From: an uncultured Acidobacteriota bacterium
Lineage (GTDB): Bacteria > Acidobacteriota > Terriglobia > Acidiferrales > UBA7541
DNA length: 64,000 nucleotides
Direction: 5' to 3'
NCBI GenBank assembly: GCA_963836125.1
Contig: CAWIIK010000006.1
Span: 31,975-95,974, forward strand
A program made the translations under genes and the position numbers. The notes beneath the pieces are model-generated. The model was not told where the DNA came from. It was given only the letters and a program-made list of their open reading frames with translations, and did not search any database. Below are positions 1 through 9,974 of the stretch, in pieces (within the stretch, counting starts at the first letter, position 1; each line of letters opens with the position of its first letter).

Positions 1-1207
1 CCGTGACAGTGCTGTCCTCAGGTTTGTAACCGAGACTCACGTGGTACGGCTCCCAGGGGCTCCTGGCCGTGTCCTCCGCAAACGTGAAGAACGTGTACGA
101 CTCCAGCCTTCCGGTGAGCGCCATGTCATTCACCTGTGGCCAGGTCTGGCCGATGTTGAGCAGAGATAGCCGAAGCGCCCGGCCCACCGTGCTATTCGCT
201 CGCCACCCGTGACCGAGCATGCCGATGCCGGAGTTAAAGCCAAGCTCCTGAGCGATCGGGCCGTCGACAACGACAACAGGCGTGAACGAGCCGGTCGAAG
301 CCTGCACGTGCGTCAAGTCATAGTGCCTATCGGTGAAGCCCTCCATCGCTGCCAGAATCACCGGGAAATACTCCGGCTTGGCGCCGGCCATCACCGCGTT
401 GACCGCTATCTTTTCGACGGTTGCGGTGCCATTTTTCGGCGCCGCCTGCCCAACTACATCTTTCGGCGAACGCGTAGTCCCCGCCAGCATCCCCTTCACC
501 AGCTCGGGCGTCGGCGGAACGGCAGGCAGACCGTCGATCCAGCGGTTGGCGAGGAACAGCTCATTCGTCTTCTCGAACGCGTCGAGGAAATCCTTGCCGG
601 TCACTTGAATGTTGCGATCCTCCCGCTCGATCTGTATGGGCGAGGGCTTCGCCTCCTCCGGGGTCAACGGGCGGGTGAGCGCGTCGATCAGGGAGTCGAA
701 ACACGCGCTGGCAAGGGGTTGCAACTCTTCTTTGCTGGCACGCGCGCGATAGTATTGGTCGGCCGGGAGAGGCAGGACCCGGATTCCGGGCATGCCGCGA
801 TCCTTCGCTGCCGATTCTGCGTCCCCGAGAAATTCGCTGGTGATGAAATAAACGCCGGGCATTCCTGACTTTTCAATTTCAATCGCGTCGTGGGAACCCC
901 ACCACGTGCAGCTCCCTCAATCGCCGACACCGAAAACAAAAAGGTCGCCCTGCTGCTTCACGGTCGGATACCACTTGGGCACGTTCGTGATCGTCTGCGC
1001 CGCCGGCTTCGCGTACATCACGACCGTTGCCTTCGGATACTTCTCTTTCAGCATGTCTGCGAGTACTTCGAGAAACTCGTTCGCGCCGAATTTGCCATTG
1101 TCGACCAGCACGAGTTTCCTTGCCGACAGGTCGGAAACGCGGGGGCTGATGCCCCGTGTGGCCGGCGGAGGAATTTCGCCGCGCGGGTTCATGACCTCAA
1201 GTTGCAT
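1..1207 (-). CDS. UxxC (UGSC-type) selenoprotein fused to a large C-terminal domain, paralog 1. Sec codon TGA at 917-919. The 3' end runs off the window.
   Basis: Listed ORF 917..1222(-) ends ...LFVFGVGD at a TGA. The same frame stays open to position 1 and reads U-GSCTWWGSHDAIEIEKSGMPGVYF...IDGLPAVPPT...VMAGAKPEYFPVILAAM...WEPYHVSLGYKPEDSTVT, colinear with paralogs 2-4. AAGGAGG lies 5 nt before the second ATG (1207), so that start is preferred over 1222. The downstream part is absent from the ORF track because it has no stop inside the window. Confidence 0.75.
889..916 (-). promoter_or_regulatory. Candidate SECIS-like hairpin just 3' of the TGA of paralog 1
   Basis: The minus-strand RNA after UGA is GGGAGCUGCACGUGGUGGGGUUCCCACG. 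Two foldings are possible: GGGAGCU/GGUUCCC (7 bp with two G-U pairs) or CGUGG/CCACG (5 bp). Both leave a G/U-rich loop. Folded by eye only. Confidence 0.4.
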
Positions 1208-1324
1208 CTGTGCCTCCTTCATGAAGCTTTCGCGTGGCCAAGTTTACCAAACGCGGCGTGCGCCACTGAGCTCGCCTTACGCCGCCGACTTGGCTCCAAC
1301 CTAGCCTATTCTAATGACCGAGTG

Positions 1325-1338
1325 GTTGTCAAAACAAC
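1325..1338 (-). promoter_or_regulatory. Operator-like 14-mer GTTGTTTTGACAAC (minus-strand reading) containing a TTGACA -35 hexamer that faces paralog 1
   Basis: The plus strand reads GTTGTCAAAACAAC, identical to 7045..7058. It is one of four copies of GTTGTYTTGACAAC in the window. No good -10 element at 17 nt was found for this copy. Confidence 0.5.
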
Positions 1339-1377
1339 CATCTGCTGCACCCTCGCTCCCACCGGCACCTTACTCAT

Positions 1378-1412
1378 GTTGTCTTGACAACTACAGTGCA
1401 GTCTGTTGTACT
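1378..1412 (+). promoter_or_regulatory. Operator-like palindrome GTTGTCTTGACAAC overlapping a candidate sigma70-type promoter for paralog 2
   Basis: The arms GTTGTC/GACAAC are perfect inverted repeats (1378..1391). TTGACA at 1384..1389 is followed by a 17-nt spacer and TGTACT at 1407..1412. The ATG at 1477 is preceded by AGGAG. Confidence 0.5.
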
Positions 1413-1476
1413 TACCGTCGTTTGACAAGAGTTTGGCGAAGCGCTCAAGCTCGGTGAATCTCGCAGGAGTCACGTC

Positions 1477-3246
1477 ATGGCCACGCTGTTGCGTTCGGCG
1501 GTATTAAATCCGGAGGCGTACCGAACCGTCAGAGCCGCCGCCGGGGACGCACCCGGTAAGCCGCCATCATTCGCTTCCCTCGCTCCGCGCCTGGACAACC
1601 TCACGGGCAAGACGATCTACCTCGTCGACACCGGATTTGGAGGAAGCGGCAAATTCCTGGACCAGGCGCAGGCATGGTTTGCCGAGAACATGCCATCGGT
1701 CAAGACCGTGCGCCGGCGGAAGACGGGCAACATCTTTCGCGACGATACAAAGGATCTCTGGGCCGAAATCAAGGAAAACGGCCAAGCCGCGATCTTAGGC
1801 GTCGCGGGTTGACCCGGCTGCGCAGCGGCGGTCGCCGCTTGCTCCCGCACGCTCGAGCAGGAATACGGAATCCCGACAGCGCCCGTCTCGACTTTTGAGT
1901 TTGCTAACGTCGTGGCCGACGATCGCCGCTTTCACGGCGTTCCCCTGCGCTTCATTTACACCCCGCATCCGGTCGTAGGCATGCCTCCTTCCGTTCTTCG
2001 CGGCTATATCGAAGGGAACGATCCGGCAACGCAACAAACCGTCATCGATGAAGTGATCGGGGCCCTCACAAAACCAGTCAGCGAAGACGAATTCACCGGG
2101 GACTTCGCGCCCGTGTCGCGGACGGGCGTCAGGCAAACCGTCCTTGAGCCGGACACGGACGACAACCTGCAGCGGCTTTTTTATGAACGAGGCTGGACCG
2201 ACGGGCTGCCCATCATCCTTCCCACGGAAGAGCGCGTCGCGGAAATGCTTGCGGGCACAAACCGGGCACCGGATGAGGTCGTCACGGAGATCTTCCTGCA
2301 CGACACCCAGGAATACTTGAAGTTCACCGTCGAAATGGTGGCCATCATAGGCGTCATGGCGGGAGCGCGGCCCGAGCACTTGCCCGTCCTTCTGGCCGTT
2401 GCCTCGACCGGGCATCCGTCGATCCCCGGCTCGACGACGCCATTTGCTTGCATGCTCCTCGTCAACGGCCCGATCCGCCATGAGATCGAGATGAATTCTG
2501 GGATTGGAGCTTTCAGTCCTCGCACCCTGGCGAATTCCGTAATCGGGCGCGCATGGACACTCCTGACAATCAACTGGGGTTACATGCGGCTCAGGAAGCA
2601 GTTCTGGACATCGCAAGGGAATCCCATCGGCTACAACAATATGTGTGTCGCAGAAAACGAGGAAAGAAGCGCCTGGGAACCCTTTCACGTGCAGAAAAAG
2701 TTTCGCCCGGAAGAGAGTGTCGTCAGCCTATTTCGCGGGTGGAGTTTCGTCAACAATGTCGTCGGATCGTCTCACCGGTCGGTAGGCAACGACATGTTCC
2801 TGCAGCTGGGAGCTCTGCCGGGCCTGTTTTCGGCAGCGACATTGATACTGGATCCGCTCGTCGCGCGGCACCTCAAGGAAAACGACGGCTTCCAGACCAA
2901 GCTGGATTTCTGCCGCTGGATTTCAGAAAATTTCACAATGCCTGCCGGACAATTCTGGGGCACGGATTTGATTCACATGATGATGGCCCCTCTCGCGGAT
3001 CAGGGTGTTGAACCATATGCGTCGTGGAAGAAGCTCCCCGAGGACACGCTGATCAGGCCGTACGACAAGCCCCCAAACATCAATATCGTCGTCGTGGGTG
3101 GCGAAACAAGTCCCATGTGGAAAGTCTCGGATTTCGCTTACGCCGTGAGCGCTTCGGTGGACAAGTGGCGCGCGAAGCCCGCCGCCGACGGCTGTACCGA
3201 TGGAAGCTGCGGCCTTCCCGATGAGCCGAGCAACGGAACCAGCTGA
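1477..3246 (+). CDS. UxxC selenoprotein fused to a large C-terminal domain, paralog 2. Sec codon TGA at 1810-1812, predicted residue 112 of 589.
   Basis: ORFs 1477..1812 and 1912..3246 are in the same frame (offset 435 nt) with a single TGA between them. The reading is ...AAILGVAG-U-PGCAAAVAACSRTLEQEYGIPTAPVSTFEFANVV-ADDRRFHGVPLRF... The segment between the TGA and the next start codon is conserved with paralog 4. Confidence 0.8.
1822..1842 (+). promoter_or_regulatory. Candidate SECIS-like hairpin 3' of the TGA of paralog 2
   Basis: GCAGCGGC-GGUC-GCCGCUUGC forms a stem of 6 contiguous pairs with a GGUC apical loop, starting 10 nt after the UGA. From memory, the E. coli fdhF SECIS also has a GGUC-containing apical loop. 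Confidence 0.5.
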
Positions 3247-3294
3247 CACCCGGAGACCCGTTCACAGACGAGACAGGAATCGAGGAGGCGGATC

Positions 3295-5088
3295 ATGGAT
3301 CGAAGAAAAATGTTGGCGTTGTTGGGAGCCGGCCCGGCTCTCGTGGCCGGTCGCTCGTCTTTTGCCCGGACCGCCGCGACAACAACCCCGCCCACTGCGC
3401 CGGGATCCGCGAGCTGTAGCGCGGACAACAGCGCGGTCACCGTCCTGAACCCTGCCATCGCCACCCGGCTTGCGGATCGCGTGCCTCTTGCGCCCCGCCT
3501 GGATTCCTTGGACGGCAAAACGATTTACCTTGTGGACTTCGACTGGGGAGGCATGGGGCAGAACGACACCATTCAACAGGAAATGCAAGCATGGTTTGCC
3601 CAGCATATGCCCGGCGTAAAAACGATCATCAAGGTCAAGGGCGGCAACTTTGTTACCGACGATCCCGGGCTGTGGAAGGAGATCGCCGCGAACCATGGCG
3701 ACGGAGTCATTATCGGCGTAGCTGGTTGACACGGCTGCGTCGGGGCCGTGAGCCTCGAAGCTGGAGAAATCGAGCGGAAATACGGCATTCCCACCGTTGC
3801 CGTCGCCGGTAGGAATGTCGTGTCGTTCGGCATTCACGCGAATTTCAAATACAACACCGGTATGCCTCTTCGGTTTGTCGGCTTCCCGTTCCCCTTTTCG
3901 GGCCAGCCGCAGTCGGTGATCCGGCAATACATCGAGGGGAAAGACAGCATAAGTGGCAAGCCTCTGATGCAAGCGATCGTGGATGGTCTCACGAAGCCGC
4001 TCACCGCGAATGAGGAATTGTCGGGCACCGCTCCTGATGCTCCGCCCCCGGAACCAAGACTGCTCGCCGCCGATACGCGGGACAATCTGCAGCAGCTGTT
4101 CCGTGACAAAGGATGGACGGACTACAACCCGGTGATCCTACCGACGCCCGAAAAAGTCGCCGCGATGCTCAAGGGCACCAGTCATTCGCCGGATGAGATC
4201 GTCAAAAGCGCCGCAGGAACCTTTGGGTCGCGCCGCCCATTTACAGTCGAGAAGGTGGCTACGATTGCGGTAATGGCGGGCGCCAAGCCTGAGTATTTGC
4301 CCGTGATCCTCGCCCTATCCACCAAGGTGCCGTATCAGGATTCTACGACTTCCATAGCGAACATGGTGGTGGTGAGCGGGCCAATACGCAAGAAGATTGG
4401 GATGAATTCGGGTCTTGGCGCCTTGGGTCCGGACAATGAAGCAAATGCCGTCATTGGCCGGGCCATGACGCTCATTCACAAGGTGATCCAGGGATACGTG
4501 GAGGGCGTGACCGGCTTTGCTTCGCTGAGCAACCCGCTGCGATACGACAATCTTTGCTTCGCCGAAGACGAGGAATCTCTCCCGGAAGGCTGGCTGCCTC
4601 TTCACGTGCAACTGGGCCACAAGCCGACCGATAGCGTCGTAACCATCTTCACCGGCTGGAATTTCATTAATAGCTCAGGCTGGGTCGAACAGCACTACGC
4701 CCCTCAATTCCTGATGCGCGACTACATGTCGTCGCTGTCCGGCATGAGCGCCACACTGATCATGGATCCCACGGTCGCGGAGCTGCTCAGTGGCGTGCAG
4801 GGCTTCAAGACAAAGGCAGATCTCGGCGCTTGGCTGTCGCAGAACGTCGAAAAAACCGCCGAATCCTACTGGGGCAATGCAATCGTGTCGAGCATGCTCG
4901 CGCCGCTGGCCCGCCAGGGTCTCAAGCCGTACGCAGACTGGTTGGATCTTCCTGGCAAGAGCTTAATCAAGCCGTTCGCCAACCCGAATGGTATCCGTGC
5001 GATCGTGGCCGGAGGGAAAACGGCGAGCGTTTGGTTCGCAACCGATTTCATGCCCGACAGAGGCACGTGGATCGACGAGTGGACCTGA
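3295..5088 (+). CDS. UxxC selenoprotein fused to a large C-terminal domain, paralog 3, with a Tat-like signal peptide. Sec codon TGA at 3727-3729, predicted residue 145 of 597.
   Basis: ORFs 3295..3729 and 3748..5088 are in the same frame (offset 453 nt). The reading is ...GVIIGVAG-U-HGCVGAVSLEAGEIERKYGIPTVAVAG... The N-terminus is MDRRKMLALLGAGPALVAGRSSFA. GAGGAGG precedes the ATG. Confidence 0.8.
3730..3750 (+). promoter_or_regulatory. Candidate SECIS-like hairpin 3' of the TGA of paralog 3
   Basis: CACGGC-UGCGUCGGG-GCCGUG forms a 6-bp perfect stem that begins directly after the UGA. Confidence 0.45.
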
Positions 5089-5132
5089 CGCGAGGCCAGA
5101 TCGTCGCTCGCCTTCCACCACGGCGCAATCTC

Positions 5133-6989
5133 TTAGTTCGAAACCGTTGCTTTTTGTGCCGGCGCGAACTCCGGTTCGGCGCTCGGCGCGGCTTCCGGGA
5201 TGCCGCAGGTGCCATCTTTGCAGGTCAGCGGCACTGGCATCCGAAGCGGTCGCGCGTCCCGGCGAATTCCGCACTTCGGCCGCCACGTATCAATCGAAAC
5301 GCTTCGGGTATATGTGAAATCCGTGGTGATCCACATCGGGTTCGTCTCGCCGCCGACAACTAAAATATTGAGGTCGTCGGGCGAGCGGCGTGGAGTGATC
5401 GGCTCGTCCTTGGGAAGCTTGGACCAGGAGGCAAACGGCTCCATCCCTTGTTCGGCCAGTCGCGCGGCAAAGCCCGATTGCATCTGGCCTTCCCAGAAAT
5501 GCCCGGCAGGAACTTTTGAATTTTTGACGATCCATCGGCAGGCATCCTGCTTGGTCTTGAAACCTTCCGTTCGCAGGTTCTTGGCCACTAGCGGATCCAC
5601 GACAAATGTAATGCTGGTCCCCATCGACCCAAACGTGGCGATGACGTGAGCCATCTCCTTCGCCGGACCGAGCCCAAAGTTAAGCAGATTCCATCCGCGG
5701 AACAGGCTCACCACACTTTCGTCCGGGCGGAAGCCTTTCTGCACATGGAACGGCTCGAAGGCGCTCAACTCCTCGTTCTCGCCGAAGCACATGTTGTTGT
5801 AATTCAAGTTGTGGCCAAACGTCGCCATGAAGTTTTCGCCCGCACGCGCGTCCCCGAAGTTGATGCTCATCAGCGTCCAAGCCCTGCCGATCACCGAATT
5901 CGCGAGATTGAATGGACTGAGTGCAGCCGTGCCGCAATTCATGCCGATCTCATTGCGCATGGGCCCGTTCACAACCATCATGCGGCCCCACGAGGTTGTC
6001 GAGCTCGGCATCGACGGTTCCTGCGAGGCGGCAAGCGCGAGGATCACCGGAAAGTGTTCCGGCCGCGCTCCCGCCATCACGGCGATCGCGGCCACTTTTT
6101 CGATGGTGTACTCCGTCTTTTCCTGATGCGTGGTAATCAACATCCGTCCGACGATCTCGTCGCGATCGTGATCCGTTCCGGTCAGCATTTCGGCCACGCG
6201 TTCCTCCGTGGGAAGCACGATCGGCAAACCGTCCGTCCATCCGTTTTCGACGAATTGGCGATAGAGATTTTCAGCGCGGTCGGCCGAAAGCAAGCGCGGT
6301 CGCCGCGGCTTCCGAGCAATCGTGGGATGCTTCTCTGTTTCGGTCAGCGGCTGCGTGAGCGCCTCGATCACTTCCTGCAGCAAAGGCTGTGACGTGATGG
6401 GATCGCTTCCCTCAACGTACCGTCGCAGCACGTCTCGCGGCATCCCCATCACCGGATACGGAGAGAACCCAAAGCGCAAAGGTGTCCCGCGAGCCCGCGC
6501 ATCGCGTTCCACGAAATCGGCAAATCGGGCGGTCACGAGGGGCGCTGTGGGAATCCCATATTCGTCTTCGAGAGTTCTCGAATAATCGGCGACACTCGCC
6601 GAGCAGGCCTCTCAACCACCCACACCCAAAATGACCGCGTCGCCGCCGCCCGATTTAATTTCGGCCCAGAGTTCGGGGTCGTCGGTGAACATCGTGCCTT
6701 TTTTATGCCGCAGCACCGTCTTCACGCTCGGCATGTTACGGCAAAACCAGTCCTGCACTTCCCGCATGAACTCGATGCTGCCCGCAAATCCCGTCTCGAC
6801 TAGATAGAGAGTCTTGCCTTCCAAAGTGCCAAGGCGCGGCGCCAGGGACATGCTTTTGAGATCGCCGCTCGGTTGGGCAACGGGGTCTAAAATGTCCCCG
6901 GGCTTCGACTGTGCGTCAAGACGGCGCCCAAAGATGCCGGAAGGCTGCCCGTGCGGATCCAACACCGTCAATTTGCCGCTCTGCTCCAT
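5133..6989 (-). CDS. UxxC selenoprotein fused to a large C-terminal domain, paralog 4. Sec codon TGA at 6612-6614, predicted residue 126 of 618.
   Basis: ORFs 6612..6989(-) and 5133..6536(-) are in the same frame (offset 453 nt). The reading is ...AVILGVGG-U-EACSASVADYSRTLEDEYGIPTAPLVTARFADF... GAGGAGG precedes the ATG. Confidence 0.8.
6587..6601 (-). promoter_or_regulatory. Candidate SECIS-like hairpin 3' of the TGA of paralog 4
   Basis: The minus-strand RNA CGGCGA-GUG-UCGCCG forms a 6-bp perfect stem starting 10 nt after the UGA. It could breathe to 5 bp with an AGUGU loop. Confidence 0.45.
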
Positions 6990-7023
6990 ATGAGTCCTCC
7001 TCTATCTAGCCGCGTCGCGCATA

Positions 7024-7058
7024 AGTTTAATCGTTCTTCATTTAGTTGTCAAAACAAC
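7024..7058 (-). promoter_or_regulatory. Operator-like 14-mer GTTGTTTTGACAAC overlapping a candidate promoter for paralog 4
   Basis: On the minus strand, TTGACA (7052..7047) is followed by a 17-nt spacer and TAAACT (7029..7024). This lies about 30 nt upstream of the RBS and ATG at 6989. The 14-mer at 7045..7058 is identical to 1325..1338. Confidence 0.55.
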
Positions 7059-7163
7059 CTTCTGCCATTCGACCCGGGGACGCGTGCGCGAAGTCCCTGG
7101 CGACTTAGTCAGGCAGCGAGCGTTTCGCATCTGCGTTATGGTTCCGCGTGCAATCAGGAACGT

Positions 7164-7739
7164 CTAACGGCGGCGGGCGGTACGATGCTTCTGTTGGATC
7201 GCAAGCTGAAACATTTCTTCCGCTCGGGCAGAAAGCAAGTCGAGTACTCGTTCCACGTCGCGAGCCCGTTGTCCCTGCAACAACTGGCGCTGATACTCCT
7301 CCGCGACTGGCGCGATCTTGCGCAAGAGCGCCTCACCCTTCTTCGTCAATGAGAGTAACGAAGCTCGGCTATCGGATGGATGCGACGTCCTCTGGATCAA
7401 TTTGCGGCGCAGCAAGCCCCTCAGCGAGCGGCTGATCCAGGCTTTGTCGACGTGCGTTCTGCGGCTCACTTCATTCACTGAGATGGGCTGATAGGCGCCC
7501 AGCATCACCAGGATCCGCAAATCCGTCGGCTTCACGCCGTAGCGATCTTTGAACGTGAGCGTGCCGATGCGAAGAATCAGTTCCGAGAGACGGACAATGC
7601 GCACGGAAACCAGCCGGATGAGCGTGTCGATATGGGGAGCGTGTTCCTGCCGGTGTCTCGGCTTCAACGGACTCGTTCGCCCGCTTCGGCCAGCTTCAAG
7701 GACCTTGGGATTGGCGGTCTGCGGTTCGCCAACGCTCAT
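7164..7739 (-). CDS. MarR-family transcriptional regulator
   Basis: The winged-helix core reads ...KPTDLRILVMLGAYQPISVNEVSRRTHVDKAWISRSLRGLLRRKLIQRTSHPSDSRASLLSLTKKGEAL... The start is taken at the internal ATG (MSVGEPQ), because the upstream part of the listed ORF is not protein-like. The predicted protein contains no cysteine. Confidence 0.85.
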   Translation of the reverse strand: MSVGEPQTANPKVLEAGRSGRTSPLKPRHRQEHAPHIDTLIRLVSVRIVRLSELILRIGTLTFKDRYGVKPTDLRILVMLGAYQPISVNEVSRRTHVDKAWISRSLRGLLRRKLIQRTSHPSDSRASLLSLTKKGEALLRKIAPVAEEYQRQLLQGQRARDVERVLDLLSARAEEMFQLAIQQKHRTARRR

Positions 7740-7776
7740 CGATGTTTCTCTCCCGAATGCGTCGATGCGAGCATAT

Positions 7777-7811
7777 GGTGTCTTGACAACAATAAGGTAC
7801 ACGAGTATATA
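7777..7811 (+). promoter_or_regulatory. Operator-like 14-mer GGTGTCTTGACAAC overlapping a near-consensus promoter for the PQQ dehydrogenase gene. It also lies in the marR upstream region.
   Basis: TTGACA at 7783..7788 is followed by a 17-nt spacer and TATATA at 7806..7811. The site has one mismatch to the palindrome at 1378..1391. It sits 38-51 nt upstream of the divergent marR ATG at 7739. Confidence 0.6.
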
Positions 7812-7889
7812 GCAGATCGGCTCGAGAATGCACGTCCTGAGAGAAGATTTCATGCGAAGAGCTGACCGCGCTATCGGAAAGAAGGAGTG

Positions 7890-9974
7890 ATGAATAGACG
7901 GCAAATATCGGCGACTGAGTTGAGGGCTCCAGCCCGAGGAAATGGGTCAACGAAGCGCATTTTCGCCTTCGTCCTGACCATCGTTGCGGCCGCAAGCATT
8001 ACTCTTGCCGCAGAGTCCGGCACCAACGAGTGGTCCACCGTGAACGGCACCGGCAACATGCGCTATTCCTCCCTCGCGCAGATCAACGCCGGGAACGTGG
8101 CGAAGATGGGAGCGGCGTGGGTGGTGGACGGGATCGAGCCGATGCCTTCAAATCGCGCCACGCCGGTAATCGACGCCGGTTTGATGTTCTTGACAGCGCC
8201 GCCTTACGTGTACGCGGTGGACATCAACACCGGGAAGATCGCCTGGAGCTATAAGGCTGACGCACCAACTGCGCACGGAGGCGTGGCGGTCGGCGATGGG
8301 CTTGTTTTCGTAGGTATTTGGAACCCCGCCAGAACGACCCTGATCGCGCTACGAGAGAAAACGGGGGAGCTTGCGTGGAAATCTTCTCTGGTGCCCTCGT
8401 CCGGCGAACCAACCGGCGGCGCTTCGGGTGCCCCCTTGTTCGCCGACGGAGTGGTATCGATCGGCACAAACGGGGATTACGGATATCGGGGCCAGATCGT
8501 AGCCTTTGATGCCAAGACCGGGAAGGAAGCCTGGCGGTTTTACGTGGTGCCGTCGCCGGGAGAGCCGGGGTCCAACACGTGGCCGAAGAACAATGACGCG
8601 TGGTTGCACGGCGGCGGCGCCGTCTGGCTGGATGGCGTTTACGATCCGGAATTGGGCCTGGAGTTTTACGTCACGGGAAACGCTGTCCCGCAATATGGCG
8701 GCGAATACCGGCCAGGCGACAATCTGTACACCGATTGCGTGATCGCTCTCGACAACCAGACCGGCAAGCTGCGCTGGTATTATCAGGTGGTCCACCACGA
8801 CATATGGGAAGCCGATATCGCTGAAGCGCCGGTTCTCTTCGATGCCGAAGTGGACGGCCACGTCCGCAAGGCGATTGCAGCCATGCGCACGGACGGATAC
8901 CTGTTCATGTTCGATCGCGCGACCGGTAAGCCACTCGATCCCATGGAAGAGCGGAGCGTGCAGCAAGACGCGTATCAGAAAACAGCGAAAACACAGCCCT
9001 ATCCCGTCGGCGCCGAACCCGTCCTGCCAGACTGCGATTACTGGAAAACGCAGGCTATACCCGCGGGTTTTGATTTGGGCTGTTTCTTCACGCCCGCGGC
9101 TGTCGATAAGCCGAATCTGCTTGTCCCGGTTTACGGCATGCGCGCCACGCCGATGGCATTCGATCCGCAAACGCACTTTTTCTATGCCACCGGAAATGCC
9201 GGATTGCAGTGGTTCCGGCGAACGAAAGATCCGGACTTTTTCAGCCTGGGCTTCAGCAATCGTGTACCAGGGCTGGGCAAATTGGGCTACGGCGTACTGG
9301 CCGCGATCGATAGCCGCACCGACAAGATCGTCTGGAAAAACGAAATCCACGATGGGAGGCCCAGCGGCGCCCTGGCGACCGCAGGAGGCCTGGTGTTTCA
9401 GATGGCTGGAGACGGCAATCTCCAAGCGTACGACGCCAAGGGTGGCTCTCTGCTGTGGCAGTTTCAGACCGGCTCGCCCGTCGGCGGTCCGCCGATCGCT
9501 TTCGAGAATCGTGGCGAGGAATACATTGCTAGCGTCGTGGGTGGCGCCGTCTGGGCCTTCACGCTCGGTGGAACGATTCCACAGCGCTCGGCGCTGCCCA
9601 TTCACCCGCAAGAAGATTTTTCAGGGCCAATTACTGATACGGCGAGCATCGAAACTGCGACTCTCGTGCGAGATATGGGCCTCACGGGCGCGCATTTCAT
9701 CGCCGACGAGTACGAGTTCAATCCCTACCGCGCTCGAGTTACGGTCGGCACGCGCGTCTCCTGGCGGAACAATGGCGTGATGGATCACACCATTGTGGCC
9801 GTGGATGACTCTTGGACAACCGGTACGCTCGACCCTCTCGACATCGGCACGGTCGTCTTCGACAAACCGGGGACGTATGTCTACCACTGTAAGGAGTACC
9901 CGTGGGACTACGGCGAAATCATCGTCGTACCCGCGGAGGCACAGAGCCAACCGGCCGGCCAACAGGATCCATAG
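7890..9974 (+). CDS. PQQ-dependent dehydrogenase (methanol/ethanol family beta-propeller) with a C-terminal cupredoxin-like domain
   Basis: Family-typical stretches are NMRYSSLAQINAGNVAKMGAAWV, ATPVIDAGLMFLTAPPYVYAVDINTGKIAWSYK and DNLYTDCVIALDNQTGKLRWYYQVVHHDIWE. The C-terminal ~100 aa read ...RVSWRNNGVMDHTIVAV...GTYVYHCKEYPWDYGEIIVV. AAGGAG lies 5 nt before the ATG at 7890, while the listed ORF starts at the GTG at 7887. Confidence 0.85.
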   Translation: MNRRQISATELRAPARGNGSTKRIFAFVLTIVAAASITLAAESGTNEWSTVNGTGNMRYSSLAQINAGNVAKMGAAWVVDGIEPMPSNRATPVIDAGLMFLTAPPYVYAVDINTGKIAWSYKADAPTAHGGVAVGDGLVFVGIWNPARTTLIALREKTGELAWKSSLVPSSGEPTGGASGAPLFADGVVSIGTNGDYGYRGQIVAFDAKTGKEAWRFYVVPSPGEPGSNTWPKNNDAWLHGGGAVWLDGVYDPELGLEFYVTGNAVPQYGGEYRPGDNLYTDCVIALDNQTGKLRWYYQVVHHDIWEADIAEAPVLFDAEVDGHVRKAIAAMRTDGYLFMFDRATGKPLDPMEERSVQQDAYQKTAKTQPYPVGAEPVLPDCDYWKTQAIPAGFDLGCFFTPAAVDKPNLLVPVYGMRATPMAFDPQTHFFYATGNAGLQWFRRTKDPDFFSLGFSNRVPGLGKLGYGVLAAIDSRTDKIVWKNEIHDGRPSGALATAGGLVFQMAGDGNLQAYDAKGGSLLWQFQTGSPVGGPPIAFENRGEEYIASVVGGAVWAFTLGGTIPQRSALPIHPQEDFSGPITDTASIETATLVRDMGLTGAHFIADEYEFNPYRARVTVGTRVSWRNNGVMDHTIVAVDDSWTTGTLDPLDIGTVVFDKPGTYVYHCKEYPWDYGEIIVVPAEAQSQPAGQQDP

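What the first reader, a model, noticed from the sequence alone, without database searches (positions are those of the whole stretch)
1325..7811. The same 14-bp near-palindrome GTTGTYTTGACAAC sits on the -35 box of four promoters around a MarR gene
Seen directly, there are four copies, each oriented toward the downstream gene. The copies are 1338..1325 (minus, GTTGTTTTGACAAC, toward paralog 1), 1378..1391 (plus, GTTGTCTTGACAAC, a perfect 6+2+6 palindrome, toward paralog 2 and probably paralog 3), 7058..7045 (minus, GTTGTTTTGACAAC, toward paralog 4) and 7777..7790 (plus, GGTGTCTTGACAAC, toward the PQQ dehydrogenase and within the divergent marR upstream region). Each contains TTGACA. In three of the four, a -10-like hexamer follows after exactly 17 nt: TGTACT, TAAACT and TATATA. 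Established knowledge: MarR-family dimers bind short palindromes overlapping -35/-10 elements and usually autoregulate. Inference: the MarR at 7164..7739 represses a small regulon made of the four selenoprotein genes, the PQQ dehydrogenase/cupredoxin gene and itself. The MarR has no cysteine, so it is unlikely to be an OhrR-type thiol sensor. A small-molecule ligand is more likely.
Basis: partly seen in the sequence, partly recalled or inferred. Interest (0 to 1): 0.7.

Follow-up and report, generated by a model that had tools for sequence, protein, structure and literature searches.

The report
MarR repressor operator on four promoters
A 14-base near-palindrome sits on the RNA-polymerase landing site of four promoters around a MarR-type regulator gene in an uncultured soil acidobacterium; it is very probably that regulator's binding site, an ordinary type of switch that here controls a cluster of selenium-containing proteins of unknown function.

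Summary
GTTGTYTTGACAAC (at most 1 mismatch) occurs at 1325-1338(-), 1378-1391(+), 7045-7058(-) and 7777-7790(+), and nowhere else in the 64 kb. Each copy points its TTGACA toward the adjacent gene.

Comparative evidence supports the interpretation:
- In 20 orthologous loci from Candidatus Acidiferrales MAGs (319 kb), 42 sites with at most 1 mismatch were found, against about 0.1 expected. The sites inspected lie ahead of transcription units of the same, variously rearranged cluster. The 14-mer is invariant while its flanks have diverged.
- Distant homologues of the MarR (about 40-48% identity, same recognition helix) in Proteobacteria carry the same palindrome next to the marR start, beside quite different target genes.
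- UGSC-fusion orthologues in other phyla with no such MarR nearby lack the motif.
- In one locus the MarR is a frameshifted remnant. There one operator has a 1-nt insertion and another has lost its left half, yet the -35/-10 elements remain.

Most likely mechanism: a dimeric MarR repressor occludes the -35 box (site centre about -34.5) and is released by an unknown small molecule. Autoregulation is plausible but its geometry varies between orthologues. No binding experiment exists. This is a new, uncharacterised member of a textbook kind. Its value is as a handle on the function of UGSC selenoproteins.

The parts
1325..1338 (-). Operator O1 (GTTGTTTTGACAAC), on the promoter of UGSC-fusion paralog 1
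   Evidence: The same promoter class is conserved in L002, L003, L004, L006 and L007.
1308..1313 (-). Candidate -10 TAGAAT for paralog 1. It lies 13 nt after TTGACA and 18 nt after the left-half hexamer TTGTTT (1337..1332).
   Evidence: TAGAAT/TACAAT is conserved 12-13 nt after TTGACA in orthologous promoters.
1378..1391 (+). Operator O2 (GTTGTCTTGACAAC, perfect palindrome), on the promoter of the paralog 2-3 operon
   Evidence: Invariant in 15 of 16 promoters of this class.
1404..1412 (+). Extended -10 TGtTGTACT, 17 nt after TTGACA (1384-1389)
   Evidence: TTTGnTGTACTT is conserved in nearly all orthologues.
7045..7058 (-). Operator O3 (GTTGTTTTGACAAC), on the promoter of paralog 4
   Evidence: Conserved in L003-L008.
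7024..7029 (-). -10 TAAACT, 17 nt after TTGACA (7052..7047)
   Evidence: 10 of 12 match to the sigma-70 consensus
7777..7790 (+). Operator O4 (GGTGTCTTGACAAC), in the divergent marR / PQQ-like dehydrogenase region, with TTGACA pointing toward the dehydrogenase
   Evidence: Present in 18 of 18 orthologous promoters listed.
7806..7811 (+). -10 TATATA, 17 nt after TTGACA (7783-7788)
   Evidence: TATATA/TATACA is conserved.
7770..7775 (-). Candidate marR -10 (TATGCT), one base from O4. It is homologous to the cTATACTcgc element conserved about 35 nt upstream of marR in L001-L006 and L010.
   Evidence: inference
7164..7739 (-). marR: a 191-aa MarR-family winged-helix regulator with no cysteine and recognition helix RRTHVDKAWISRS
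1..1222 (-). UGSC-fusion selenoprotein paralog 1, which runs off the window start. The Sec codon TGA is at 917-919. The true start is probably the second ATG, at 1207.
1477..3246 (+). UGSC-fusion selenoprotein paralog 2 (Sec TGA at 1810-1812)
3295..5088 (+). UGSC-fusion selenoprotein paralog 3 (Sec TGA at 3727-3729). It starts 48 nt after paralog 2 with no operator of its own, so it probably shares that operon. Its N-terminus looks like a Tat signal.
5133..6989 (-). UGSC-fusion selenoprotein paralog 4 (Sec TGA at 6612-6614)
7887..9974 (+). PQQ-type beta-propeller dehydrogenase-like protein with a weak cupredoxin-like C-terminus

Best explanation
The 14-bp near-palindrome GTTGTY-TT-GACAAC is the operator of the MarR-family regulator encoded at 7739..7164.

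Proposed mechanism:
- A MarR dimer binds each copy. With TTGACA as the -35 hexamer the site spans about -41 to -28, centred near -34.5, so bound MarR excludes sigma-70 region 4 and represses transcription.
- Four transcription units are controlled in the window: paralog 1, paralogs 2-3, paralog 4, and the PQQ-like dehydrogenase. marR itself is probably controlled too, through the shared divergent region.
- The central TT is not needed for the palindrome. It turns the right half into a perfect -35 box and gives each site its direction.
- Repression is presumably relieved by a small-molecule ligand, most likely a substrate or intermediate of the pathway encoded by the cluster.

Shown: the sites, their specificity, their conservation, and their co-occurrence with the MarR subfamility across phyla. 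Inferred: binding, the direction of regulation (repression), autoregulation and the ligand.
For: - Specificity: there are 4 sites in a 6.5-kb stretch and none in the other 57 kb of housekeeping genes.
- Footprint: 42 sites with at most 1 mismatch occur in 319 kb of 20 Acidiferrales loci, against about 0.1 expected. The sites inspected are oriented toward a gene start and fall into four promoter classes, each with its own conserved -10. Flanks are diverged and the 14-mer is invariant.
- The motif persists through gene-order rearrangements and precedes other enzymes in relatives: an SDR, a PEP-utilising-domain protein and a TPP E1 subunit.
- Cross-phylum link to the regulator: MarR homologues with the same recognition helix carry GTTGTCAAGACAAC (0-1 mismatch) 10-27 nt upstream of their start in L020, L026, L029, L030 and L032. 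Further sites occur in L022 and L031. The neighbours there are RPE65/SnoaL, aldehyde dehydrogenase or GMC oxidoreductase genes.
- Dissociation: UGSC-fusion orthologues in three other phyla, with no such MarR within 5 kb, have no motif within 5 kb.
- Natural experiment in L025: the MarR is reduced to a frameshifted C-terminal remnant. One operator carries a 1-nt insertion (GTTGTCTTTGACAAC) and another has lost its left half (GCTCACTTGACAAC), while the -35/-10 elements persist.
- The protein is a bona fide MarR wHTH (PF12802 E 3.6e-11; best PDB match 2fa5, E 2e-16).
- A characterised analogue works this way. PhcR of Sphingobium SYK-6 binds inverted repeats over the -35/-10 of four promoters, autoregulates, and is released by a pathway intermediate (PMC12447483).
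Against: - There is no binding, footprinting, TSS or expression evidence. All promoters are consensus predictions.
- The loci were collected by searching for the MarR, so the co-occurrence is partly ascertained from the regulator side. Only the UGSC-side check and L025 go the other way.
- Two homologues with essentially the same recognition helix (L018, L019, Cellvibrionaceae) have no recognisable site within 10 kb. L023 and L028 have only 2-mismatch sites.
- The paralog-1 class has its conserved -10 only 12-13 nt after TTGACA, so the simple '-35 = TTGACA' picture does not hold for all four promoters.
- The distance from the operator to marR ranges from 38 nt in the window to about 230 nt in L001. 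This weakens a uniform autoregulation model.
- The L025 remnant could be an assembly error.
Confidence: 0.8

Rival explanations
1. The 14-mer is only an extended -35 or promoter signature of strong sigma-70-type promoters in this lineage, and no dedicated regulator binds it.
For: Every copy contains a perfect TTGACA, and three of the four have a -10 at 17 nt. In L025 the right half (TTGACAAC) survives while the left half changes.
Against: - The conserved left half (GTTGT) lies upstream of the -35 box and forms a dyad with the right half, a feature of dimeric regulators rather than of sigma contacts.
- No other promoter in 57 kb of housekeeping genes carries even TTGACAAC.
- The paralog-1 class conserves the motif although its -10 is 12-13 nt from TTGACA.
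- The same palindrome accompanies the MarR subfamily in Proteobacteria.
- It is missing from UGSC genes that have no such MarR nearby.
Confidence: 0.04
2. The palindrome is a real operator, but for a different transcription factor encoded elsewhere. The adjacent MarR would then recognise something else.
For: No binding data exist. Some distant loci also encode LysR, AraC or GntR regulators nearby. L018 and L019 share the recognition helix but lack the motif.
Against: - The MarR is the only regulator common to all motif-bearing loci across two phyla.
- In five proteobacterial loci the site lies 10-27 nt from the marR start.
- Operator decay coincides with MarR decay in L025.
- No other shared motif exists in the three intergenic regions for the MarR to bind.
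Confidence: 0.08
3. The MarR binds the 14-mer but activates or counter-silences transcription (SlyA/RovA style) instead of repressing it.
For: Some MarR-family proteins activate (established knowledge). Perfect -35 boxes paired with weak -10 elements such as TGTACT might need help.
Against: A site centred near -34.5 covers the -35 hexamer itself. That position is typical of repression by occlusion and does not fit class I or class II activator positions (established knowledge). The characterised analogue PhcR, with inverted repeats over -35/-10, is a repressor.
Confidence: 0.07

Closest known systems
PhcR of Sphingobium lignivorans SYK-6 (MarR-type repressor of beta-5 lignin-dimer catabolism; PMC12447483)
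   Same: It is a MarR-family homodimer. Inverted repeats overlap the -35 or -10 of four separate promoters plus its own operon, forming a small local catabolic regulon. It is released by a pathway intermediate (DCA-CC). Its repeat also begins with GTTG.
   Different: PhcR's repeat is a 19-bp imperfect consensus, NGTTGNNGANTCANNANNN, which does not match GTTGTC-N2-GACAAC. Its targets are GMC oxidoreductases, decarboxylases and a transporter, not selenoproteins.
Classical MarR-family repressors with short palindromic operators (E. coli MarR, MexR GTTGA-N5-TCAAC, SlyA TTAGCAAGCTAA, OhrR); operator sequences recalled from memory
   Same: They share the winged-helix MarR domain, a 12-20 bp dyad operator overlapping -35/-10, divergent autoregulated arrangements, and ligand- or signal-induced release.
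   Different: The operator sequence differs. There is no cysteine, so OhrR-type oxidation sensing is excluded. The window protein has a 40-residue N-terminal extension. The closest solved structure, 2fa5, is an uncharacterised Xanthomonas protein.
UGSC-containing selenoprotein family, including the 'UGSC/Unknown_1' fusion (Zhang & Gladyshev 2008, PMC2398784; Pfam PF24696; NCBIfam NF041046)
   Same: The regulated genes have an N-terminal UGSC domain with Sec in a U-x-x-C motif, fused to a large conserved domain of unknown function.
   Different: No regulator or operon context had been described for this family in the literature I could search. Here 4 paralogs (2-4 in the related loci mapped) form one regulon together with a PQQ-type dehydrogenase.

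Membership tests
MarR family transcriptional regulators | Winged helix-turn-helix MarR domain | tested here: met
   PF12802 at 43.5 bits (cutoff 27) and PF01047 at 35.2 bits (cutoff 24.6). There are 31 PDB MarR-family matches, the best being 2fa5 at E 2.2e-16.
MarR family transcriptional regulators | Dimer binds a short (pseudo)palindromic operator | not testable with these tools
   A 6+2+6 dyad is present and co-occurs with the subfamily across phyla. Physical binding is untested.
MarR family transcriptional regulators | Operator overlaps -35/-10 of the target promoters and lies in the regulator's own upstream region | tested here: met
   The sites contain the predicted -35 of three promoters, with a -10 at 17 nt. 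O4 lies 38 nt upstream of the marR ATG. The promoters are predictions only.
MarR family transcriptional regulators | Ligand- or signal-induced release from DNA | not testable with these tools
   No ligand can be inferred. Analogy with PhcR, HpaR and CouR suggests a pathway metabolite.
OhrR-type (thiol-oxidation-sensing) MarR subfamily | Conserved redox-sensing cysteine | tested here: not met
   The 191-aa protein has 0 cysteines. The OhrR model scores only 24.9 bits against a cutoff of 200.
UGSC family (seleno)proteins (target genes) | UGSC domain match | tested here: met
   Pfam PF24696 at 61.8 bits (cutoff 25) for paralog 2. The NCBIfam equivalog NF041046 scores only 50 bits against a cutoff of 125, so this is a domain-level match, not an equivalog-level one.
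UGSC family (seleno)proteins (target genes) | In-frame UGA at the U-x-x-C position, with the reading frame conserved beyond it | tested here: met
   The motifs are G-U-GSC, G-U-PGC, G-U-HGC and G-U-EAC in the four paralogs, with about 440-490 conserved residues after the TGA in the three complete paralogs. tblastn alignments in orthologues run across the TGA.
UGSC family (seleno)proteins (target genes) | SECIS hairpin downstream of the UGA, and Sec machinery in the genome | tested here: inconclusive
   Hairpins start within a few to about 12 nt after each UGA, but z-scores are weak (-1.9 to +0.6). There is no Rfam hit and no tRNA-Sec in the window. The rest of the genome was not available.
PhcR-type regulon (SYK-6) | Operator matching NGTTGNNGANTCANNANNN | tested here: not met
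   By inspection, GTTGTYTTGACAAC does not fit the GA-N-TCA core. It works like PhcR but is not shown to be its orthologue.

The most novel reading that the evidence does not exclude
This MarR subfamily and its GTTGTC-N2-GACAAC operator may mark a cross-phylum regulon for catabolism of plant-derived, lignin-related aromatic dimers or alcohols.
- In Proteobacteria it sits beside carotenoid-oxygenase (lignostilbene-dioxygenase-like) plus SnoaL/NTF2 gene pairs, PQQ dehydrogenases, SDRs and PEP-utilising enzymes.
- In Acidiferrales the same operator drives several paralogous UGSC-'Unknown_1' selenoproteins.

On this reading those selenoproteins would be catabolic redox enzymes of such a pathway. 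That would be the first functional assignment for a widespread selenoprotein family that has been orphan since 2008.
Probability: 0.15. Interest if true: 0.7.

Novelty: new member of a known kind. Interest (0 to 1): 0.4.

Why it matters
The mechanism is textbook: a MarR repressor sitting on the -35 box.

The value lies in what it controls. UGSC selenoproteins are among the most abundant selenoprotein families in aquatic metagenomes and still have no function. Their fused 430-residue domain has thousands of homologues, no Pfam model and no structural match.

A well-defined operator and a dedicated ligand-responsive repressor give a practical entry point. Identifying the molecule that releases the MarR would identify the substrate class of the whole cluster. 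The operator also allows regulon prediction in uncultured Acidiferrales. The same operator/regulator pair could be tested easily in culturable Alphaproteobacteria.

Tried and rejected
- Function of the UGSC-fusion C-terminal domain. There was no Pfam or NCBIfam hit beyond UGSC and no PDB sequence hit. An AlphaFold model built from 25 sequences (pLDDT 72) gave no significant Foldseek match in the PDB (best E 0.03, TM 0.19). This was a dead end.
- Literature search for the 14-mer in four spellings found 0 papers.
- Rfam scan of the window for SECIS or other RNAs found 0 hits. The tRNA scan also found 0.
- I looked for a clear marR promoter. A conserved TATACT lies about 35 nt upstream of marR in several orthologues, but there is no convincing -35 and the distance to the operator varies. 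Autoregulation is therefore left as plausible.
- I considered a repeat or mobile element and rejected it. The flanks of the four copies are unrelated, and only an 8-mer is shared among the intergenic regions.
- I considered an alternative-sigma promoter and rejected it. The hexamers are sigma-70-like and the dyad extends upstream of the -35 box.
- I compared the motif with the PhcR consensus. It does not match.
- A genome-wide specificity test was not possible. Only about 20-kb loci can be fetched, and a 14-mer scan of whole collections would be swamped by chance hits.
Full report
**1. The observation**

Reading the window and searching it confirm four copies of GTTGTYTTGACAAC:
- 1338..1325 (-, GTTGTTTTGACAAC)
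- 1378..1391 (+, GTTGTCTTGACAAC, a perfect 6+2+6 palindrome)
- 7058..7045 (-, GTTGTTTTGACAAC)
- 7777..7790 (+, GGTGTCTTGACAAC)

Allowing 2 mismatches, nothing else in 64 kb matches. The expected count is 0.31, and no shuffle of 100 reached the observed count. The window has only ten perfect TTGACA hexamers, four of them in these sites, and all four TTGACAAC octamers are these sites. The only k-mer of 7 or more bases shared by the three intergenic regions (1223-1476, 6990-7163, 7740-7889) is the motif core.

The 17-nt spacings to TGTACT (1407-1412, preceded by TG, so an extended -10), TAAACT (7029..7024) and TATATA (7806-7811) are exact.

**2. The genes**

Four paralogs each carry an in-frame TGA inside G-U-x-x-C and continue for roughly 440-490 conserved residues after it (paralog 1 runs off the window):
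- <1..1222 (-)
- 1477-3246 (+)
- 3295-5088 (+)
- 5133-6989 (-)

They match Pfam UGSC (61.8 bits). UGSC is a selenoprotein family known since the GOS survey, which already noted a 'UGSC/Unknown_1' fusion. Its function is still unknown.

The regulator (7739..7164) is a 191-aa MarR-family protein with no cysteine. The divergent gene (7887-9974) is a PQQ-type propeller dehydrogenase-like protein with a weak cupredoxin-like tail. The remaining roughly 54 kb encodes housekeeping functions (Mla transporter, secretin, PepA, ArgRS, MetRS, GlmS, TonB receptors) and has no copy of the motif.

**3. Orthologous loci**

A scan of one genome per species with the MarR returned 25 loci. Twenty are from Candidatus Acidiferrales or other Acidobacteriota MAGs, with MarR identity of 68-92%. 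They carry the same cluster in different arrangements.

In 319 kb of these loci there are 25 exact and 17 one-mismatch sites, against about 0.1 expected. The sites inspected lie ahead of a transcription unit with TTGACA pointing at the gene.

Aligned by class, the 14-mer is invariant while the flanks are diverged. Each class has its own conserved -10:
- The dehydrogenase class has TATATA or TATACA.
- The paralog 2/5 class has TTTGnTGTACTT.
- The paralog 4 class has TAAAAT, TACAAT or TAGAAT at 17-18 nt.
- The paralog 1 class has TAGAAT or TACAAT only 12-13 nt after TTGACA. This suggests that its -35 is the left half of the operator (TTGTTT, spacer 17-18 nt).

In relatives the motif also precedes an SDR, a PEP-utilising-domain protein and a TPP-dependent E1 subunit.

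**4. Linking the motif to the MarR**

Distant homologues share the recognition helix RR[TAS]HVDKAW[IV]SRS. They are about 40-48% identical to the window MarR and come from Caulobacteraceae, Sphingomonadaceae and other metagenomic contigs.

Five of them have GTTGTCAAGACAAC (0-1 mismatch) 10-27 nt upstream of the marR start: L020, L026, L029, L030 and L032. Two of these are tandem pairs. L022 and L031 have two or three sites each near neighbouring genes. L027's contig begins with AAGACAAC, which is half a site cut off by the contig end.

The neighbours there are not selenoproteins. They are carotenoid-oxygenase-family (RPE65) plus SnoaL-like pairs, an aldehyde dehydrogenase, a GMC oxidoreductase and PQQ enzymes.

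Conversely, UGSC-fusion orthologues 60-73% identical to paralog 2, from Acidimicrobiales, Dehalococcoidales and a 'Dormibacteraeota' MAG, have no such MarR nearby and no site with 2 or fewer mismatches within 5 kb. The motif therefore tracks the regulator, not the target genes.

In L025 the MarR survives only as a frameshifted C-terminal remnant. There one promoter reads GTTGTCTTTGACAAC (one extra base between the half-sites) and another reads GCTCACTTGACAAC (left half lost), while the -35 and -10 elements persist.

Exceptions exist. L018 and L019 (Cellvibrionaceae) have no site, and L023 and L028 have only 2-mismatch sites.

**5. Mechanism**

With TTGACA as the -35 hexamer, the dyad spans about -41 to -28 and is centred near -34.5. 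A bound dimer would exclude RNA polymerase, which is the standard MarR repression geometry (established knowledge).

The central TT is not part of the dyad. It completes the -35 box and sets the direction of each site.

Autoregulation is plausible. In the window a candidate marR -10 (TATGCT, 7775..7770) lies one base from the operator, which would place the operator in the promoter spacer. In the proteobacterial homologues the site lies next to the marR start. In L001-L006, however, the conserved marR -10 (TATACT) lies roughly 60-190 nt from the operator (read from the sequences printed).

The lack of cysteine rules out OhrR-like sensing, so a small-molecule effector is the reasonable default.

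**6. Comparison with known systems**

The closest characterised analogue found is PhcR of Sphingobium SYK-6. It is a MarR-type homodimer that binds inverted repeats over the -35/-10 of four promoters, autoregulates, and is released by a pathway intermediate. Its repeat, NGTTGNNGANTCANNANNN, is different.

No paper in the searchable library contains the 14-mer. All close MarR homologues are annotated only as 'MarR family'.

The finding is therefore a new, uncharacterised member of a known kind.

**7. What led nowhere**

The C-terminal domain of the selenoproteins has more than 4,700 homologues but no Pfam model, no PDB sequence match and no significant structural match. Rfam and tRNA scans of the window were empty. 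The hairpins after the UGA codons are present but not statistically distinctive.

**8. Verdict**

Interest is moderate. The switch itself is ordinary, but it offers a route to the unknown function of UGSC selenoproteins.

Noticed in passing
window 1-6989 (four paralogs); alignment A1: The roughly 430-aa domain fused to UGSC has more than 4,700 homologues in Acidobacteriota, Acidimicrobiales, Dehalococcoidales and others. It has no Pfam model, no PDB sequence hit and no significant Foldseek hit (AF2 pLDDT 72). The alignment has many invariant residues, for example D97, C245, E248, E250, E251 and H259 (paralog-2 C-terminal numbering). Databases mostly call it as a separate ORF because of the TGA.
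   Followed up: partly
window 3295-3390 (N-terminus of paralog 3); also the P5-like paralog in L025 (about 7780) and L011 (18793): Paralog 3 and the 'fifth' paralog type begin MDRRKMLALLG...A, or otherwise carry a signal-like N-terminus, which suggests Tat or Sec export. Paralogs 1, 2 and 4 have none. The regulon may therefore combine periplasmic and cytoplasmic selenoproteins with a periplasmic PQQ-type enzyme.
   Followed up: no
L025 3900-4400, 6000-6200, 7700-8100: The MarR is reduced to a frameshifted C-terminal remnant. One operator has a 1-nt insertion (GTTGTCTTTGACAAC) and another has lost its left half (GCTCACTTGACAAC), while the -35/-10 elements are kept. This could be a natural loss-of-repressor state or an assembly artefact.
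   Followed up: partly
L020, L026, L028, L029, L032 (and the P0262 contig, for which no DNA was held): Proteobacterial members of this MarR subfamily are repeatedly divergent from a carotenoid-oxygenase-family (RPE65) gene followed by a two-domain SnoaL-like gene, with SDR, PQQ and PEP-utiliser genes nearby. This resembles the lignostilbene dioxygenase plus NTF2-like LdpA/PcfL pairs of sphingomonad lignin-dimer pathways (PMC9942872, PMC12997858). It is a resemblance only and was not tested.
   Followed up: partly
window 7812-7836: About 25 nt downstream of the dehydrogenase -10 (GCAGATCGGCTCGAGAATG) are conserved across most orthologues, beyond what a 5'-UTR would need. The -10 TATATA is self-complementary, and on the marR strand it reads TATACT. 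This may be a second regulatory element or a marR-direction promoter. It remains unexplained.
   Followed up: no
window 1205-1222: The first ATG of paralog 1 (1222) is followed by AAGGAGG and a second ATG at 1207. The second is the likelier start.
   Followed up: no
window 1420-1428: An isolated half-site-like TTTGACAAG lies in the predicted 5'-UTR of paralog 2. It is not conserved in orthologues. L013, L014 and L016 have CTTGACAAAC on the opposite strand, about 25 nt upstream of their operator.
   Followed up: no
window 7887-9974: The PQQ-type protein scores best against NCBIfam 'acido-empty-quinoprotein group A' (321 bits, below the cutoff of 650) and about equally against PQQ methanol/ethanol dehydrogenases (311 bits, below 480). 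Its C-terminus weakly resembles amicyanin or halocyanin (E about 5e-4). Whether it binds PQQ at all is open.
   Followed up: no
L027 1-8: The contig starts with AAGACAAC, the right half of the operator cut off by the contig end. It lies upstream of a gene that precedes a MarR homologue and a tannase-family gene.
   Followed up: no
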